Positions 412 through 51,264 of a DNA stretch of 64,000 nucleotides are shown here, one piece after another; the stretch's first letter is position 1, and each line of letters begins with the position of its first letter. The position numbers were made by a program, and so were the translations under genes. This DNA comes from Elusimicrobiota bacterium (GTDB taxonomy: Bacteria; Elusimicrobiota; Elusimicrobia; UBA1565): positions 1 through 64,000 of the forward strand of contig JBDRPD010000108.1 in NCBI GenBank assembly GCA_043827405.1, written 5' to 3'. The notes beneath the pieces are model-generated. The model searched no databases. It was not told the origin of the DNA and was given only the letters and a program-made list of their open reading frames with translations.

Positions 412-1035
412 ATGCCCAACAGCACCTACTACATGAACTTTCACTTCCTGCGGCTTGATCACAGCTACCACAAGCTGATCTCCAACGAAAAAGTTGTCGC
501 CAAGCAGGATTTCCTGTCGGCGTTCGATGCCATGGCGCACCACATGCCCATCGCGACGTACGCGCTCAGCGGCCTGCGCTCCGACTGCGATATGCTGATC
601 TGGCGCGTCAGCCGCCGCCTCGAAGACCTGCACGCGATGTCCTGCCGGCTGCAGTATTCCGGCATCGGCAAATACCTGATAACCGCGCGCACCATGCTGG
701 GTACGGTCTCCGGCACACGCTATACTCCGCCGCCGCAGGAAGATACCGATGCGGACGGCGGGCCCACGGTAATCGGCAAAGCGCCGTATCTGATCGTACA
801 GCCGATACTGAAGAACACGCGCAACTCCATGCCGCAAAACGACCCCTCCTCGGAGTCGCATCTGCATATCGCGGATGCCACGGGGCTTGACGATCCGGAC
901 CATATCGTCGCCTTTGAGACCAAGGACCCGCTGGAGTTCCGTCAGTTCGCCGAATCCTGGAAGATCGCACCCGATACCCCGACCTACACCTGCATTCAGG
1001 CCGGCATTAAGGAGATCATCGACAGCTTCGGGTGA
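412..1035 (+). CDS. Chlorite dismutase/coproheme decarboxylase (Cld/HemQ-ChdC) family protein, shortened
   Basis: YALSGLRSDCDMLIWRVS and GLDDPDHIVAFETKDPLEF...DTPTYTC match the two ferredoxin-like halves of the family. AGGA SD at 401-404. Confidence 0.7.
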   Translation: MPNSTYYMNFHFLRLDHSYHKLISNEKVVAKQDFLSAFDAMAHHMPIATYALSGLRSDCDMLIWRVSRRLEDLHAMSCRLQYSGIGKYLITARTMLGTVSGTRYTPPPQEDTDADGGPTVIGKAPYLIVQPILKNTRNSMPQNDPSSESHLHIADATGLDDPDHIVAFETKDPLEFRQFAESWKIAPDTPTYTCIQAGIKEIIDSFG

Positions 1036-45903: not shown

Positions 45904-46814
45904 TGGACAGCCCGGACCGCATCGCCAAGCGCCTAACCCGGATCGGCGCCTATGCGGCGGCGCGCGCCTACTCCCTCTATACCCAGCGCCGCTGGCGCCA
46001 TCCGGGAACGAGCATCACCGACACCCCGCGGTATCGCGACTTCTGCGCCCGGGCAGCCCAGGACAAATCGTTCGCGCGCTTCCGCGCCGATCCGATCTGC
46101 CGGCTCTTCATCGAGAACAACAACTCCGATGAGGGCCGCTATTACCTGCAGGCCATGCTGGACGGCGCGCCGCATTACAAAAACTTCCTCGACAAATTCC
46201 GCACCAACGACAAGTTCGGCGGCGGCGGCGCCTTCGTCTACGGCAAGAACGGGCGGTTCGCGCCGACGACATTGCGCTACGCCAAATACCTAAGCGACTG
46301 CGAGCGGCATTTCGGCGCGCTGGACTCCAGGCGCGTGGTCGAGATAGGCGGCGGCTACGGCGGACTGTGCAAGCTGTTTTTCGACCGCTTCGACCTCGCC
46401 CGCTACTATCTGGTGGATCTGCCCGAAACGCTCGCGCTGGCGCGCCGCTACCTGTGCGCAACGCTCGGCGAAGAGACGGTCATCGGCAAGATCATCTTCG
46501 TTAACGCCAAGGACAATGCCGCGCTGACGCGCCATCTCAAGATGGATTTTTTTGACCTGGCGGTGAGCACGCTGGCCTTCTCCGAATGCGCGCGGGAAAT
46601 GCAGAAAACCTACATCGACTTTGTTTTCAACAAAAGCACCTACGGCTATCTGGTTATGAACGCTTTGAGCGGCGCCTTCGGCATCGACTCCCACAGCGAC
46701 GCCGAGGTCCAGGGACGGCTGTTTAAGACCGTCGAGGCGGAGGAAGATCCGGGCTGGTGGTGGGACGACCGCGTGACGATCTGGACCTGGAAGCCGGAAA
46801 GGATCGGGCTCTAG
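45903..46814 (+). CDS. Putative sugar O-methyltransferase (class I SAM-dependent)
   Basis: PTTLRY, VVEIGGGYGGL, YLVDLPE, AFSEC. Confidence 0.75.
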   Translation: MDSPDRIAKRLTRIGAYAAARAYSLYTQRRWRHPGTSITDTPRYRDFCARAAQDKSFARFRADPICRLFIENNNSDEGRYYLQAMLDGAPHYKNFLDKFRTNDKFGGGGAFVYGKNGRFAPTTLRYAKYLSDCERHFGALDSRRVVEIGGGYGGLCKLFFDRFDLARYYLVDLPETLALARRYLCATLGEETVIGKIIFVNAKDNAALTRHLKMDFFDLAVSTLAFSECAREMQKTYIDFVFNKSTYGYLVMNALSGAFGIDSHSDAEVQGRLFKTVEAEEDPGWWWDDRVTIWTWKPERIGL

Positions 46815-49804
46815 CCGCCTATAGCAGGATACGACTCCGGCGTCTTGGGCGAGGGGATGACGATCTCATCGCCGCTGAGCGATTCCAGGAAGGCGATCAA
46901 GTCCTTCTTCTCGTCCGGCGCGAGCCGCAGGGGCGCAAGCAGCGGAGTTTTATTGACCGCGTCCCCGCCGCCCCGGTCATAGAAATCGACGACCTCGGCC
47001 AGCGTCGCGAATATGCCGTTATGCATATACGGCGCGGTGTACTTGAGCTCGCGCAGGCTCGGCGTGCGAAACTTGCCGCTGTCCGCCTCGCGGTGCGTCA
47101 TCAGATAAAGCCCCGGATCGGAGTCCGCCGCGCGATAGACCTCCTCGGGCGCGCCGTGAATAACGTGCTTGTAGCGCACCGTGACCTGCCGCAGAGGCAT
47201 CTCATCGATGCGGGGATTATGCGGCACGCCGGTGGCGTGAAATCCTTGGTCGGAGGCCAGCGGACCGTTATGACAGCGCAGGCACCCGGCCTTGCCCTCG
47301 AACAGCCGCCGTCCGCGCTGGGCGGCGGGAGAGAGGACGCCCCGGTCAAACGGCGCATTCCTCGACACCGGCACCGCGCGTTCGAAGGCGGCGATGGCGC
47401 GGAGCACGCCCTCGAAGTTGGGCCGCTCGACTCCGAACACCTCCTTGAACATGGCGACGTACTCCGGCGACGTCGCCAGACGCTCCTCAACCAGCTCCGG
47501 ATCGCCGTTGCCGTTGAGGTTCGAGATAATAGCGGAGCGCGCCTGCTCCTCCAGACTCGGCTTGGTGCCGTCCCACTCCAGCTTGCTGTAATAGGCGGCA
47601 TTGAGGATGGTCTGCGAATTGCGCCAGTCCAAGGTGCCCGAATAGCCGAGGGCGAGCTCGGCGCCGTCGCCCCAGCCCATCGCGGGCTCATGACAGGCGG
47701 CGCAGAAGGAGTCGCCGTTGCCGGAGAGCCGCGGCTCGAAAAACAACAGCTTTCCGAGTTCGACCTTGGCCGGCGTCAACGGATTATCACCAGGCACCGG
47801 CACCGGAGGAAGCGGGCCGAGCGGCGGCGGCGCGGCGGCCGCGATCTCCCCCGGCTGTTCGCGGGGGGCTGCCGCCTTCTCCCTCCGGGGACGGAGAGCA
47901 TCGCCGGGAGAGCTCACGAACTCGACGACCGGCGTCTCGCTGCTGAGCGATTTAAGAAATTCCGCGAGGTCCCGTTTCTGCCGCCGGCTCAGCCGCGGGT
48001 TTTCGAAGCCGACGGCCTCTTCCAGCGTATTAAACATCCCGTTGTGCATATAGGGAGCGGTGCGCGCGACCTCCCGCAGCGACGGGGTCCGGAACTTTCC
48101 GCGGTCCGCTTCGTCCTTGGTAACGGCATAGTAGCCGATGTCTTGCTGCAGATTCGCATAACCCTCGATGCCGAAAACCTTGAAAAAACGACGGAAGGAG
48201 ATAAGGCGCAGGATATTCTTCTGTACTTCCGGATTCTCCGGTACGCCGCGATTATGCAGCCCGCCGTCGGTCAGCAAAGGCCCGTCATGGCAGCGCACGC
48301 AGCCGGCCTCACCGGTGAACAGCCGGTAGCCCCGGCGCGCGGCCCGGCTTAAAGCCTTTTTCTCGCCCCGCAGGAAGCGATCATACGGAGCCTCGCCGGA
48401 ACGCAGCGAGCGCACAAAGGCGGAGAGCGCCTCCAGCATCCTCGCGTAGGACGGCTCGGCGCCATAAACCCGCTGAAAAGCCTCCACATAATCCGGCGCC
48501 TGCCGGAGCTTTTCGACCACCAGCCGGCCGTCGGCTCCCATGAAGTGCGCTTCCGAGATATGATCGCGGATAAGAGAGGGCAGATCATCGCCCGGGAAAC
48601 GCCCGTCCCAATACAGATACTTCTGCCCGCCGCTGTTGAACAGCGTCGGCGTATTGCGGAAGTAAAGGGTTTCGGGATAGCCCGGCGACAGGGCGAGCCC
48701 GTCGGTAAACGCCTGTTCCGGACGGTGGCAGTCGGCGCAGTTGCGGGAGGCGTCGCCGGAAAGCCGCTGGTCGAAAAAGAGGACCTTCCCAAGCCGCTCT
48801 TCCGTGTCGATGGGGAGCCGCGGTGCCCCGGCCGCCGGGATATGGGGGCGGGTGCCGGAGACATCCCACAGCCGCAGGGAATGGTCCTCGCTCGCCGAAA
48901 CGGCGAGGCTTCCGTCCGGAGAGAAAGCGACATCGCGCACGCCGTTAAGATGCCCCCCCCAGACCGCGAGCTCACGCCCGGTCGCGACCTCCCAATGGCG
49001 AACGGCGTAATCCGCTCCGGCCGAGAGCGCGGTGCGGCCGTCGGGAGAGAAGGCGACGGCATAGATGTAGCTCTTGTGCCCCTTCCACACGGCCAGCCCG
49101 CTTCCATCCGCGGTGTCCCACAAACGCAGGGTATTGTCCCGGCCGCCCGAAAGCGCCCGCCGCCCGTCGGGTGAGAAGGCGACGGCCATAACCTTGTTGG
49201 CATGCCCGCGCCAAACCGCCAGCTGCCGCCGCGCCGCGACGTCCCACAGCCGCAGGGTTTTATCTCCCTGGCCGGTAAGGAGCCTCTTGCCGTCCGGCGA
49301 GAAAGCGACGGCGGCGGCGTGCGCGAGCGCGCCTTGCTGCAAAGTAGCCGCTTCCCGGCGCTCGCGGATATCCCACAGCTTGAGCTCACCGGCGTACGAA
49401 GTCGTCGCGGCGAGGCGTCCATCCGGCGAGATCGCGATCGCGCGAATCTCGCCCTGATGCCCCGGCAGCGAGGCGAGCTCGCGGCCGGAGGAAATATCCC
49501 AAATTTTGAGGAGACGGTCCTCGCCGCCCGAAAGCGCGTACTTCCCATCGGGGCTTATCGCGACCGCCAGCACCTCCCCCGTATGCCCTCGCCAGGTCGC
49601 GAGCACTTTGCCGCTCGCGACGTCCCATACTCTAACCGTGCGGTCTTCGCTAACCGAAAGGACGCGCGAACCGTCGGGGGTAAACGCCGCGCCATAGACG
49701 TGATGAGTATGCCCTTTCCAGACCGCGAGCGAGGGGCTGTCGGCGGCGGCGGACAGGACGGGAGACGCCAGGAGAAGAGCGGATGCGAACAAACAGCGCA
49801 GCAT
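46811..49804 (-). CDS. Secreted WD40 propeller fused to two di-haem cytochrome c peroxidase/MauG-family domains (4 CXXCH)
   Basis: Signal peptide, seven GH...WD/WE repeats, CADCH/CVRCH/CAACH/CLRCH, two copies each of LFF(D/E)xRLSG and GKFRTPSLRE...TAPYMHNG. Confidence 0.9.
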   Translation of the reverse strand: MLRCLFASALLLASPVLSAAADSPSLAVWKGHTHHVYGAAFTPDGSRVLSVSEDRTVRVWDVASGKVLATWRGHTGEVLAVAISPDGKYALSGGEDRLLKIWDISSGRELASLPGHQGEIRAIAISPDGRLAATTSYAGELKLWDIRERREAATLQQGALAHAAAVAFSPDGKRLLTGQGDKTLRLWDVAARRQLAVWRGHANKVMAVAFSPDGRRALSGGRDNTLRLWDTADGSGLAVWKGHKSYIYAVAFSPDGRTALSAGADYAVRHWEVATGRELAVWGGHLNGVRDVAFSPDGSLAVSASEDHSLRLWDVSGTRPHIPAAGAPRLPIDTEERLGKVLFFDQRLSGDASRNCADCHRPEQAFTDGLALSPGYPETLYFRNTPTLFNSGGQKYLYWDGRFPGDDLPSLIRDHISEAHFMGADGRLVVEKLRQAPDYVEAFQRVYGAEPSYARMLEALSAFVRSLRSGEAPYDRFLRGEKKALSRAARRGYRLFTGEAGCVRCHDGPLLTDGGLHNRGVPENPEVQKNILRLISFRRFFKVFGIEGYANLQQDIGYYAVTKDEADRGKFRTPSLREVARTAPYMHNGMFNTLEEAVGFENPRLSRRQKRDLAEFLKSLSSETPVVEFVSSPGDALRPRREKAAAPREQPGEIAAAAPPPLGPLPPVPVPGDNPLTPAKVELGKLLFFEPRLSGNGDSFCAACHEPAMGWGDGAELALGYSGTLDWRNSQTILNAAYYSKLEWDGTKPSLEEQARSAIISNLNGNGDPELVEERLATSPEYVAMFKEVFGVERPNFEGVLRAIAAFERAVPVSRNAPFDRGVLSPAAQRGRRLFEGKAGCLRCHNGPLASDQGFHATGVPHNPRIDEMPLRQVTVRYKHVIHGAPEEVYRAADSDPGLYLMTHREADSGKFRTPSLRELKYTAPYMHNGIFATLAEVVDFYDRGGGDAVNKTPLLAPLRLAPDEKKDLIAFLESLSGDEIVIPSPKTPESYPAIGG

Positions 49805-49814
49805 CGAAGTTACG

Positions 49815-51227
49815 CTAGCATTTTGGCTGCTCCGCTTGAACAAGGTGAAAGCAGAGCAGGCAGAGGGATGTCACCGCCACCCCGGCATAGAGGTCGTCCA
49901 CCTGCGCCCAAAATCCGGCATGCCCGGCCAAGCGCCAGTAGGTGACGGCGGCGACCCCGGCCAGGCAGGTCGCCACGAAACGCAAGTCGCTCAGCCGACC
50001 GGGGAAGAGATGGCCGTAGAGTACGGGAAAAAGCAGGCAGGCGGCGGAGTAGCTGCCCAGCGTCTTCCAGACTTCCTTGATGTTCCCCTCGAAGCAGAAA
50101 GACAGCAGCACCGCCAGGACGCCCACGGAGACGACGCCCAGGTGATGAATTTTCACCTTGCCTTTCAGCCGCGCCGGCACCAGATCGTAGGCCAGAGTCG
50201 TCCCGGCAAGAAAGATGTAGGAATCCAGGGTCGAGAGAATAGTGGCCAATATCCCCGCCAGGAAGAAGCCGCGCAGGCCGCTGGGCAGAATCTGCACGGC
50301 ATAGATCAAATAGGCCTGCGCCGAATCCGCCCCCGGGATGGCCGCCCGCGCGTACATCGCCCCCGCCGTCGTGCAAATATCGAAACCCACCCAGACCAGC
50401 AGGCACAGCCAGATTCCGCGCCGCGCCGTCCGCTCCGAATCCGCGGCGAAGCAGCGCTGGTAGAAGTTGGGATCGACCAGGGTCGACAACGCGATAAATC
50501 CCCAGACCAAAGCGGTGGCCCAGCTTTCCCCGCCCAGCGGCGCGAAGTGCGAGGCCGGCAGGTGGGCGCGCAGATAGCCCAGGCCGCCGAATCGCGCAAC
50601 CGACGCGGCCAAAACCAGAAACACCGCCGCGCACATGACGAAGAACTGCAGCATGTCCGAGAACACCACCGCGCGCAAACCGCCCGAGAAAGAATAGAGG
50701 ACCACCCCCAGGACGCCGGCCGCGATCCACAACGGCAGGCTGCCGCCGAACAGCGCCTGCAGGAACAGTCCCAGGCTGATGGCGTAGACGATGGGAATCA
50801 CGTTCATGAAGTTGAATACGGCGGCGAGCTTCTCGGAGCGCGGACCGAACATCCGTCCGACCATTTCGGGCAAAGTCAGGACATCGTAGCGCCGGAGCCG
50901 GCCGACGATAAAGAGCGCGAACAGGGCATAGGTCGCGTACCAGAACACGCCTTGGGTGAGAAAGTTGTAGACCCCCTTGTCGAATGCGATCTGGGTCACG
51001 CCGAAGATGCCGCCGTACCAGGTCGCCACCAGCGTGGCCACAAACATGGGCAAAGTCAGCCGGCGGCCCATGACCATCAGATCGAGGAAAGAGGCCGCCT
51101 CGTCCATGTCCCGCCGCTTGCGCGTCTGACCGTAGATCACCATGGCGAAAGTCGCCAGCAGCACCGAGACGAAGACCGCCCAATCGGCGGGGGTAAGGAT
51201 CGCGGGCAGGTCGAGAGTGTCGCGCAT
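49815..51227 (-). CDS. Sodium:solute symporter (SSS) family transporter
   Basis: About 13 TMs, VATLVATWYGG, LTLPE, YSFSGGLRAVVFSDMLQF, YQRCFAA, ILSTLDS. Confidence 0.9.
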   Translation of the reverse strand: MRDTLDLPAILTPADWAVFVSVLLATFAMVIYGQTRKRRDMDEAASFLDLMVMGRRLTLPMFVATLVATWYGGIFGVTQIAFDKGVYNFLTQGVFWYATYALFALFIVGRLRRYDVLTLPEMVGRMFGPRSEKLAAVFNFMNVIPIVYAISLGLFLQALFGGSLPLWIAAGVLGVVLYSFSGGLRAVVFSDMLQFFVMCAAVFLVLAASVARFGGLGYLRAHLPASHFAPLGGESWATALVWGFIALSTLVDPNFYQRCFAADSERTARRGIWLCLLVWVGFDICTTAGAMYARAAIPGADSAQAYLIYAVQILPSGLRGFFLAGILATILSTLDSYIFLAGTTLAYDLVPARLKGKVKIHHLGVVSVGVLAVLLSFCFEGNIKEVWKTLGSYSAACLLFPVLYGHLFPGRLSDLRFVATCLAGVAAVTYWRLAGHAGFWAQVDDLYAGVAVTSLCLLCFHLVQAEQPKC

Positions 51228-51264
51228 AAAAAATCCGGGGCCTATGGCCCCGGACAGTTTACCA
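51228..51264 (-). terminator. Intrinsic-terminator-like hairpin with an adjacent extended -10 box
   Basis: Minus strand reads TGgTAAACT-G-TCCGGGGCC-ATA-GGCCCCGGA-TTTTTT-ATG. Confidence 0.6.

What the first reader, a model, noticed from the sequence alone, without database searches (positions are those of the whole stretch)
46811..49804. Secreted WD40-(CcP/MauG)x2 tetrahaem fusion resembling a fused IdrP1-IdrP2 without iodate reductase
Seen: signal peptide, a complete 7-blade WD40 propeller (about 48860-49740), then two non-identical di-haem peroxidase-family domains with CXXCH at 48725-48739, 48287-48301, 47690-47704 and 47270-47284. Established: the bCcP/MauG superfamily includes H2O2 reductases and protein-modifying enzymes (MauG, MbnH), and idrABP1P2 iodate-reduction clusters carry two paralogous CcP-like genes. 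From memory, GYPxTLYFRN / DGRL / ISFRRF in domain 1 and GWGDG...GY.GT..WRNSQT in domain 2 resemble that P1/P2 pair (unverified). No molybdopterin or Rieske subunit gene is in the window. Inference: a single-chain heterodimeric peroxidase whose WD40 propeller docks a partner or substrate. This is the best candidate here for an undescribed system.
Basis: partly seen in the sequence, partly recalled or inferred. Interest (0 to 1): 0.8.

Follow-up and report, generated by a model that had tools for sequence, protein, structure and literature searches.

The report
Stray copy of iodate-helper haem fusion
This gene joins a seven-bladed propeller to the two haem proteins that normally accompany iodate reductase; it is one of eleven such copies in a genome that also carries the iodate reductase genes, and it likely removes reactive by-products of iodate respiration outside the cytoplasm through a haem pocket unlike those of studied peroxidases.

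Summary
Architecture confirmed: 997 aa, signal peptide, seven WD40 repeats, two CCP_MauG domains, four CXXCH. A contig from an independent study bridges both domain joints. The Idr resemblance is now tested: domain 1 falls in the IdrP2 clade and domain 2 in the IdrP1 clade, so the order is P2-P1. 'Without iodate reductase' is wrong for the genome: contig C53 holds a propeller-less P2P1 fusion beside idrA and idrB, and ten more WD40-P2P1 genes in tandem. The scan had already noted that array and operon on other DNA. The window gene is an eleventh, dispersed copy in a rearranged locus. Neither domain keeps the Gln/Pro/Glu peroxide-activating triad, but nor do canonical IdrP1/P2 (Glu 0 of 65). 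Domain 1 has Glu where IdrP2 has the axial Tyr, and this copy has Asp at a His invariant in IdrP1. Best reading (0.45): periplasmic, cytochrome-fed remover of iodate-respiration oxidants; the propeller's partner is unknown. New variant of a known kind; interest 0.6.

The parts
46811..49804 (-). Whole gene, 997 aa (P0001): signal peptide - WD40 - IdrP2-like - IdrP1-like
49745..49804 (-). Probable Sec signal peptide (about residues 1-20)
   Evidence: sequence, by eye; similar N-termini in 14 of 15 family members as called, the fifteenth has one from an upstream start
48857..49732 (-). Seven-bladed WD40 propeller, residues 25-316; mean identity among the 11 paralogues 48%
47939..48805 (-). Domain 1, IdrP2-like di-haem domain, residues 334-622
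48725..48739 (-). Haem 1 of domain 1, CADCH
48542..48574 (-). Domain 1 distal pocket: L411/H415/F421 where MauG has Gln/Pro/Glu; Idr-conserved E418 and H420
48287..48301 (-). Haem 2 of domain 1, CVRCH
48002..48004 (-). E601 at the position of the axial Tyr of IdrP2/MauG, followed by a loop deletion
46865..47824 (-). Domain 2, IdrP1-like di-haem domain, residues 661-980
47690..47704 (-). Haem 1 of domain 2, CAACH
47627..47629 (-). D726 where canonical IdrP1 has His (34 of 34)
47513..47545 (-). Domain 2 distal pocket: Q754/A758/N764 (Gln kept, Pro and Glu not)
47270..47284 (-). Haem 2 of domain 2, CLRCH
46979..46981 (-). Y942, aligned with the axial Tyr of MauG and MbnH (predicted His/Tyr haem)
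49815..51227 (-). Sodium:solute symporter ending 10 bp upstream on the same strand; flipped relative to family relatives; context, not shown to be functionally linked
51233..51255 (-). Terminator-like hairpin (10 pairs) whose T-tail runs into the symporter start codon

Best explanation
The gene is a dispersed member of an 11-copy family built from a fused idrP2-idrP1 gene plus an N-terminal WD40 propeller, and its product is likely a periplasmic four-haem reductase that takes electrons from periplasmic cytochromes and would destroy reactive by-products of iodate respiration (H2O2 and/or hypoiodous acid). Shown: architecture, Idr ancestry, copy number, an idrA/idrB cluster in the same genome, intact haem motifs in all copies. 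Predicted: the two domains pack as a pseudo-dimer. Inferred: export and haem attachment; domain 2 (His/Tyr haem, bridging Trp744, distal Gln754) as the more likely catalytic half; domain 1 (His415 over haem 1, Glu601 on haem 2) as a retuned electron relay; the propeller as a docking module that gives each copy a different partner or place. Substrate and partner are untested.
For: Domains fall in the IdrP2 (SH-aLRT 99) and IdrP1 (98) clades with proteins of the iodate reducers Azonexus hydrophilus NCP973 and Roseovarius azorensis; quick tree, 115 rows. WD40 fusions are one clade (100/99), sister to four propeller-less fusions that include the genome's own idr-cluster copy P0121 (100/99; careful tree, 25 rows). 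P0122 is 50% identical to Azonexus IdrA (920 bits) against 27-30% to the AioA-type hits listed, has CX2CX3CX70S, and is followed by a Tat Rieske subunit over the TIGR02694 cut-off. At least one CcP-like gene lies in 33 of 37 IdrA-like loci. All 11 copies keep four CXXCH in open frames at 58-82% domain identity apart from one divergent copy. The family is among the two largest paralogue sets of long proteins in the genome. Core model pLDDT 94.9, pTM 0.92; its best folds are bCcP structures, with mixed-valence (open-loop) forms scoring above oxidised forms of the same enzymes (2vhd 0.82 vs 1eb7 0.67; 4aam 0.82 vs 4aal 0.74). Bridging Trp kept 15 of 15 in both domains; Ca-site Asn 15 and 14 of 15. 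The genome has cytochrome c assembly genes, a haem-copper oxidase, no monofunctional catalase match and no CCP_MauG gene outside these 12. Papers propose H2O2 removal for IdrP1P2 and find them in the active Idr band (PMC8692401, PMC10149662; passages).
Against: The Gln/Pro/Glu triad that PMC6405878 calls conserved across bCcP, MauG and BthA (E277Q impairs peroxidase activity) is met 0 of 3 in domain 1 and 1 of 3 in domain 2; Glu is absent from all 31 canonical P2 and 34 canonical P1 examined. The role of IdrP1P2 is itself only proposed ('still unclear', PMC10149662, PMC11445184). This copy has Asp726 at a His invariant in canonical IdrP1. Simple detoxification does not explain eleven diverged copies with diverged propellers. 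The gene is not near idr and sits behind a terminator-like hairpin. Iodate reduction by this uncultured organism is not shown.
Confidence: 0.45

Rival explanations
1. A MauG/MbnH-like modifying enzyme: domain 2 forms a high-valent state from H2O2 or an iodine oxidant and oxidises or iodinates a protein held by the propeller, each paralogue having its own target.
For: Domain 2 keeps the axial Tyr (15 of 15), bridging Trp and distal Gln. Propellers diverge faster (48%) than the haem domains (66%, 70%), and several top-face positions are among the most variable. Tandem copies seem to recur elsewhere: P0012, P0013 and P0149 share a longest-contig length of 11,812 bp, and P0011 and P0126 one of 8,502 bp (DNA not seen).
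Against: Distal Glu and Pro are missing; both domains score under the TIGR03791 and TIGR04039 cut-offs; no MbnP-, MauB- or quinoprotein-like gene turned up among the neighbours scanned; WD40 top faces are variable in general (own knowledge).
Confidence: 0.2
2. A non-catalytic electron carrier or store: the haem pockets are closed by protein ligands and the propeller wires the unit to different periplasmic redox partners, IdrAB among them.
For: His (or Met) replaces the distal Pro in 29 of 31 IdrP2 and in all 16 domain-1 sequences; Tyr is invariant at the CcP His71 loop position in 65 of 65 canonical domains. The haem-2 ligand position of domain 1 varies as Glu 12, Met 2, Gln 1, as expected of redox-potential tuning. 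IdrP1/P2 co-migrate with IdrA (PMC10149662). The genome has many other multihaem cytochromes.
Against: The model resembles open-loop bCcP forms more than closed ones (weak, may be training bias). Idr-specific conserved polar residues (E418, H420, N766, D768; His726 in most copies) look like a remodelled active site.
Confidence: 0.2
3. This particular copy is a weakly expressed or redundant stray, moved with the symporter in a local rearrangement, while the C53 genes do the work.
For: In 7 of 7 relatives with both genes the symporter converges on the upstream hypothetical gene; here it is flipped, and none of 8 relative loci (about 1.5 kb flanks) has a CcP gene. A strong terminator-like hairpin abuts the symporter start and no sigma-70-like promoter was found. 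His726 is lost.
Against: Open frame, four haem motifs and a well-preserved propeller; end branch 0.44, not long for the clade; the second strain has no gaps over 2,318 bp; two array copies also have Asp726.
Confidence: 0.1
4. An iodide-oxidising haloperoxidase running the iodine chemistry in the oxidative direction.
For: Idr ancestry and an altered distal pocket.
Against: No such activity appeared in the passages read on IdrP or the bCcP superfamily; known bacterial iodide oxidases are multicopper enzymes (recalled).
Confidence: 0.05

Closest known systems
IdrP2 and IdrP1 of the iodate reductase cluster idrABP1P2 (Azonexus hydrophilus NCP973, Roseovarius azorensis, Azoarcus DN11, Pseudomonas SCT, Denitromonas IR-12)
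   Same: Domain 1 is 45-47% identical to IdrP2 and domain 2 54-55% to IdrP1 of Azonexus and Roseovarius; same clades; same order P2-P1; shared Idr-specific residues (loop Tyr, E418, H420, WRNxQ, GNGD).
   Different: One chain with a WD40 propeller; eleven copies; this one on a different contig from idrAB; axial Tyr of P2 replaced by Glu with a loop deletion; IdrP1 His replaced by Asp.
MauG, MbnH and BthA (His/Tyr di-haem enzymes)
   Same: Fold, bridging Trp, and in domain 2 the axial Tyr and distal Gln.
   Different: 30-40% identity; outside their branch of the tree; no distal Pro or Glu; below both NCBIfam cut-offs per domain; no cognate substrate gene found nearby.
Canonical bacterial cytochrome c peroxidase (CcpA, BccP, MacA)
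   Same: Best structural matches (target TM up to 0.84); domain 1 resembles them in the short C-terminal loop, and two paralogues have Met at the ligand position.
   Different: No distal Gln/Pro/Glu; Tyr instead of His in the haem-1 loop; two unlike domains in one chain instead of a homodimer.
Propeller plus haem fusions (WD40-cytochrome c; WD40 or YVTN plus one CCP_MauG)
   Same: Propeller joined to a c-type haem domain (Atlas clusters; L069 and P0477).
   Different: One haem domain only; L069 groups outside the Idr clades.

Membership tests
IdrP1/IdrP2 | Falls in the IdrP1 or IdrP2 clade | tested here: met
   domain 1 with IdrP2 (99), domain 2 with IdrP1 (98); quick tree, SH-aLRT only
IdrP1/IdrP2 | Two CXXCH per domain and a Sec signal | tested here: met
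   signal judged by eye
IdrP1/IdrP2 | Encoded next to idrAB | tested here: not met
   this copy is on C108; idrA/idrB are at C53:91345-94634 beside the paralogue P0121
IdrP1/IdrP2 | Axial Tyr position on haem 2 | tested here: inconclusive
   met in domain 2 (Y942), not in domain 1 (E601; canonical P2 Tyr 31 of 31)
IdrP1/IdrP2 | Induced by iodate; co-migrates with IdrA | not testable with these tools
   no RNA holder listed; complex prediction unavailable
Canonical bCcP | Distal Gln/Pro/Glu at the peroxidatic haem | tested here: not met
   L411/H415/F421 and Q754/A758/N764; alignment-based
Canonical bCcP | His/Met high-potential haem | tested here: not met
   E601 and Y942 at that position
Canonical bCcP | Bridging Trp and Ca-site Asn/Thr | tested here: met
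   W399/W744, N384/N729, T582/T923
MauG | TIGR03791 cut-off 443.85 and mau cluster | tested here: not met
   159 and 194 bits per domain; no mau genes among neighbours scanned
MbnH | TIGR04039 cut-off 362.85 and adjacent mbnP | tested here: not met
   169 and 201 bits per domain; the whole protein's 361 bits sums two domains; no mbnP among neighbours scanned
MauG/MbnH/BthA | bis-Fe(IV) state with H2O2 | not testable with these tools
   needs spectroscopy
IdrA (for P0122 on C53) | Much closer to IdrA than AioA; CX2CX3CX70S; Tat Rieske partner; CcP-like neighbours | tested here: met
   no IdrA tree was built; Rieske motif spacing is 17, against 18 given for DN11

The most novel reading that the evidence does not exclude
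Iodate-reductase helper haems have been turned into a family of targeted periplasmic enzymes: each of the eleven propellers selects a different protein or surface, and the tetrahaem core uses oxidants from iodate respiration to oxidise or iodinate it through a Glu-free haem pocket not described in the bCcP/MauG superfamily.
Probability: 0.12. Interest if true: 0.9.

Novelty: new variant of a known kind. Interest (0 to 1): 0.6.

Why it matters
What IdrP1 and IdrP2 do is an open question in iodate respiration; papers assign them H2O2 removal while calling the function unclear. The alignments here show that the IdrP domains examined lack the distal Glu thought necessary for peroxide activation and conserve other residues instead. 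Single-chain P2P1 proteins, with natural variants at the haem-2 ligand (Tyr, Glu, Met, Gln) and at the IdrP1 His (His, Asp), make that question directly testable with one construct each. An eleven-fold expansion of a 1,000-residue tetrahaem protein in a groundwater bacterium also suggests iodine or peroxide chemistry matters more to it than a single idr operon implies.

Tried and rejected
Misassembly: rejected (independent contig across both joints; array covered in all 30 bins by X2). Ordinary CcpA, MauG or MbnH: rejected by tree and cut-offs. 'Orphan without reductase': rejected. C53 Mo enzyme as arsenite oxidase: disfavoured; the TIGR02693 hit is shared by R. azorensis IdrA. Window copy as the basal WD40 fusion: seen for domain 1 in the quick tree (87) but unresolved in the careful tree. 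Expression: no RNA holder listed for the window; two RNA runs laid on 19.9 kb of the array gave 0 contigs; neither is evidence either way. Complex prediction of the haem core with IdrB could not be run (tool unavailable); no verdict. Riboswitch upstream of the symporter: no Rfam match in the window. ESM Atlas: all feature hits under 0.9, no cluster of 50 or more with this architecture shown. Junction search (223-711 aa) found no further WD40 fragments among 113 new proteins. Top-face variability had no proper control and is not counted as proof of diversifying selection. The first, 119-row domain alignment contained non-CcP cytochromes; rows without the [YF][MF]HxG motif were dropped and four references added, giving 115.
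Full report
Observation. The ORF at 46811-49804 (minus strand) translates to 997 aa. The four CXXCH motifs are at the stated coordinates. Pfam finds seven WD40 repeats and two CCP_MauG domains; the AlphaFold model has a seven-bladed propeller matching solved WD40 structures at target TM 0.96. The fusion is real: run X2, from another study than the probable source run, holds one contig over 47015-49332 with 35 differences and no gaps, crossing both joints.

The gene is not alone. The window is G000:C108:1-64000. A homologue search listed 120 proteins, of which 14 besides the query cover 96-99% of it at 53-63% identity. Ten of these map to contig C53 of the same genome, as a same-strand array at 31918-63154, mostly with overlapping stop and start codons, broken once by two opposite-strand genes. 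A twelfth gene, C53:89227-91332 (P0121, 701 aa), has the two haem domains without a propeller. The genome's 24 CCP_MauG matches are exactly these 12 genes. Among proteins of 300 aa or more linked at 40% identity, this family is one of the two largest sets. X2 also covers 30 of 30 bins of the 19.9 kb of the array that I laid. The scan had noted the array (e1-1202990, e1-8517511) and the idr operon (e1-9992221) before; I looked these up, after finding both myself.

The genome has iodate reductase genes. P0121 is followed by a 917-aa molybdopterin enzyme (P0122) and a Tat-signal Rieske protein. P0122 is 50% identical (920 bits) to the large subunit on the plasmid of Azonexus hydrophilus NCP973, listed as an iodate respirer in PMC13455634, against 27-30% (about 300 bits) to the AioA-type hits shown, and 51% to Roseovarius azorensis, whose Idr is studied in PMC11445184. 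It has the CX2CX3CX70S motif. Of 58 loci returned, 37 are IdrA-like (48-66%); 33 of 37 have at least one CcP-like gene in the fetched DNA, 4 of 37 a fused pair, and in all 34 with idrB it precedes idrA, whereas G000 has A then B. An IdrA-like gene was found in 2 of 101 genomes of the order, G000 included. With P0121 as query, 43 of 401 phylum genomes matched, but none other than G000 gave a two-domain match; the best was 44% over one domain (two candidates scored per genome). The closest IdrA among the 58 loci is from an Elusimicrobia MAG (L034, 66%); the phylum label for G000 itself comes from earlier scan notes and was not tested by me. The two runs holding most of the window are labelled groundwater metagenome.

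Ancestry. In a quick tree of 115 domains, domain 1 groups with the idrB-distal genes (SH-aLRT 99) and domain 2 with the idrB-adjacent genes (98); MauG, MbnH and 16 other CCP_MauG proteins from the phylum lie outside. The adjacent gene is IdrP1 and the distal one IdrP2 (PMC10149662 accessions; PMC10989891), so the fusion is P2-P1. Identities are 45-47% to IdrP2 and 54-55% to IdrP1 of Azonexus and Roseovarius. In a careful tree of 25 haem cores, the 16 WD40-linked proteins form one clade (100/99), sister to four propeller-less fusions including P0121 (100/99); the window copy's place in the clade is unresolved. So one duplication of an already fused P2P1 gene, then propeller gain, then expansion, is the simplest history (inference). 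Fused P2P1 is common: 104 further proteins among the 120 listed for the core. The WD40 cap is rare: four full-length clusters outside this genome (P0011-P0014) and one fragment starting in the last blade (P0129). In the exhaustive search of 50% representatives, 1 of the top 150 has WD40 plus four haems.

Haem chemistry. With an 86-sequence alignment the 670-residue core models at pLDDT 94.9 and pTM 0.92, which implies a confident arrangement of the two domains; best folds are bCcPs, then MbnH and MauG. Both domains keep the bridging Trp and the Ca-site Asn and Thr. Domain 2 keeps Tyr942, which aligns with the MauG and MbnH Tyr; the phmmer match to P. denitrificans MauG ends at query 286 / chain 296, putting it on position 294 if the last columns are ungapped. 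Domain 1 has Glu601 and a loop deletion there: Glu 12, Met 2, Gln 1 among 15 WD40 proteins, Glu in 4 of 4 sister fusions, Tyr in 31 of 31 canonical P2 and 61 of 63 other fusions. The change therefore predates the propeller, and a few stand-alone P2 have it too (3 of 113). PMC6405878 states that a distal Gln, Pro and Glu are conserved across bCcP, MauG and BthA and that E277Q impairs peroxidase activity. Here domain 1 has Leu/His/Phe and domain 2 Gln/Ala/Asn; Glu is present in 0 of 31 canonical P2 and 0 of 34 canonical P1, against 16 of 16 other CCP_MauG proteins from the phylum (the MbnH row was misaligned at that column). Instead Idr domains conserve a Tyr at the CcP His71 loop position (65 of 65), Glu418 (31 of 31) and His420 (30 of 31) in P2, and a His before WRN (34 of 34) in P1, where this copy and two array copies have Asp. 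The pocket looks remodelled rather than decayed, but canonical peroxidase activity cannot be assumed. CcP residue names such as His71 are recalled.

Propeller. Among the 11 paralogues it is 48% identical on average (blades 1-3 42%, blades 4-7 52%), against 66% and 70% for the haem domains. Some top-face positions are conserved (aromatic in blade 3, Arg in blade 5, Glu in blade 7), others highly variable. This fits a docking role but does not show it.

Local context. The gene lies 10 bp after a sodium:solute symporter and converges on a putative methyltransferase and thiamine pyrophosphokinase. In the family, 8 of 16 other genomes have the symporter; in 7 of 7 loci with the upstream hypothetical gene the two converge, and in three the order is TPK, a FecR-like gene (label by eye), symporter; none of the 8 loci shows a CcP gene. 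In G000 the symporter is flipped, with a 10-pair terminator-like hairpin directly before its start. The copy thus arrived in or after a lineage-specific rearrangement, and nothing ties it functionally to its neighbours.

Mechanism. I commit to a periplasmic, cytochrome-fed reductase for reactive by-products of iodate respiration (0.45), because ancestry, the idr cluster and the proposed role of IdrP1P2 point there. The missing triad and the unexplained copy number leave real weight on a MauG-like targeted modifier (0.2), an electron carrier (0.2), a redundant stray (0.1) and iodide oxidation (0.05).

Literature. Read as passages: PMC8692401, PMC11445184, PMC10989891, PMC13455634 (39, one passage), PMC10149662, PMC6405878, PMC11892367 (81, nothing relevant). 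Yamazaki 2020 was not seen, only cited by these. No supplements were opened; those of the Idr papers may show fused or variant genes. Six searches listed no paper on a WD40-IdrP fusion, on Elusimicrobiota iodate reduction, or on IdrP haem pockets; 'fused' had 0 hits in the two papers searched for it. The library lacks most subscription journals.

Verdict. Real feature, Idr link confirmed, orphan claim refuted. A new variant of a known kind, already seen by the scan on C53; interest 0.6, mainly because it offers a direct test of what IdrP1P2 do.

Noticed in passing
G000:C53:88424-94634 (L006:4425-10635): idr cluster in the order ankyrin lipoprotein, fused P2P1, idrA, idrB; all 34 other loci with idrB have it before idrA. 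Hydrogenase maturation genes follow on the other strand.
   Followed up: partly
G000:C53:64321-88436: Five paralogous secreted SGNH-like proteins (label by eye) lie between the array and the idr cluster, with a stand-alone secreted WD40 gene (63356-64330) and a 1,520-aa WD40 protein.
   Followed up: no
window 412-1035 (+): Chlorite dismutase/HemQ-family protein, the genome's only PF06778 match; no obvious signal peptide. A Cld-like protein figures in one model of HOI removal, but this one may simply serve haem synthesis.
   Followed up: partly
P0367, P0368, P0369, P0371, P0375, P0376, P0383, P0386: A separate family of 965-1,393-aa proteins with carbon-nitrogen hydrolase domains alternating with two CCP_MauG domains, mostly with the distal Gln/Pro/Glu kept in the first domain.
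   Followed up: partly
L134:3560-11071 and P0350: A 2,500-aa protein with multicopper oxidase domains and a C-terminal IdrP2-like domain; the L134 gene sits in an idr cluster.
   Followed up: no
P0156, P0159, P0163 and similar: Many P2P1 fusions of 810-970 aa carry an extra N-terminal monohaem cytochrome c (five haems), suggesting a built-in electron donor.
   Followed up: no
L070-L087: Single-domain CCP_MauG proteins with intact Gln/Pro/Glu and mostly a Tyr ligand occur in other genomes of the phylum (42 of 400 matched); G000 has none. L069 is a WD40 plus single-domain fusion.
   Followed up: partly
G000:C12:563-8837; C105:67727-69292: Large multihaem cytochromes (10, 11, 19 and 16 CXXCH), pointing to extensive periplasmic or extracellular electron transfer.
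   Followed up: no
L002:2549 (array copy 1, P0009): A contig of run X1 has 15 extra bases here, matching a five-residue gap in P0009 relative to its paralogues; the assembly may have dropped them.
   Followed up: no
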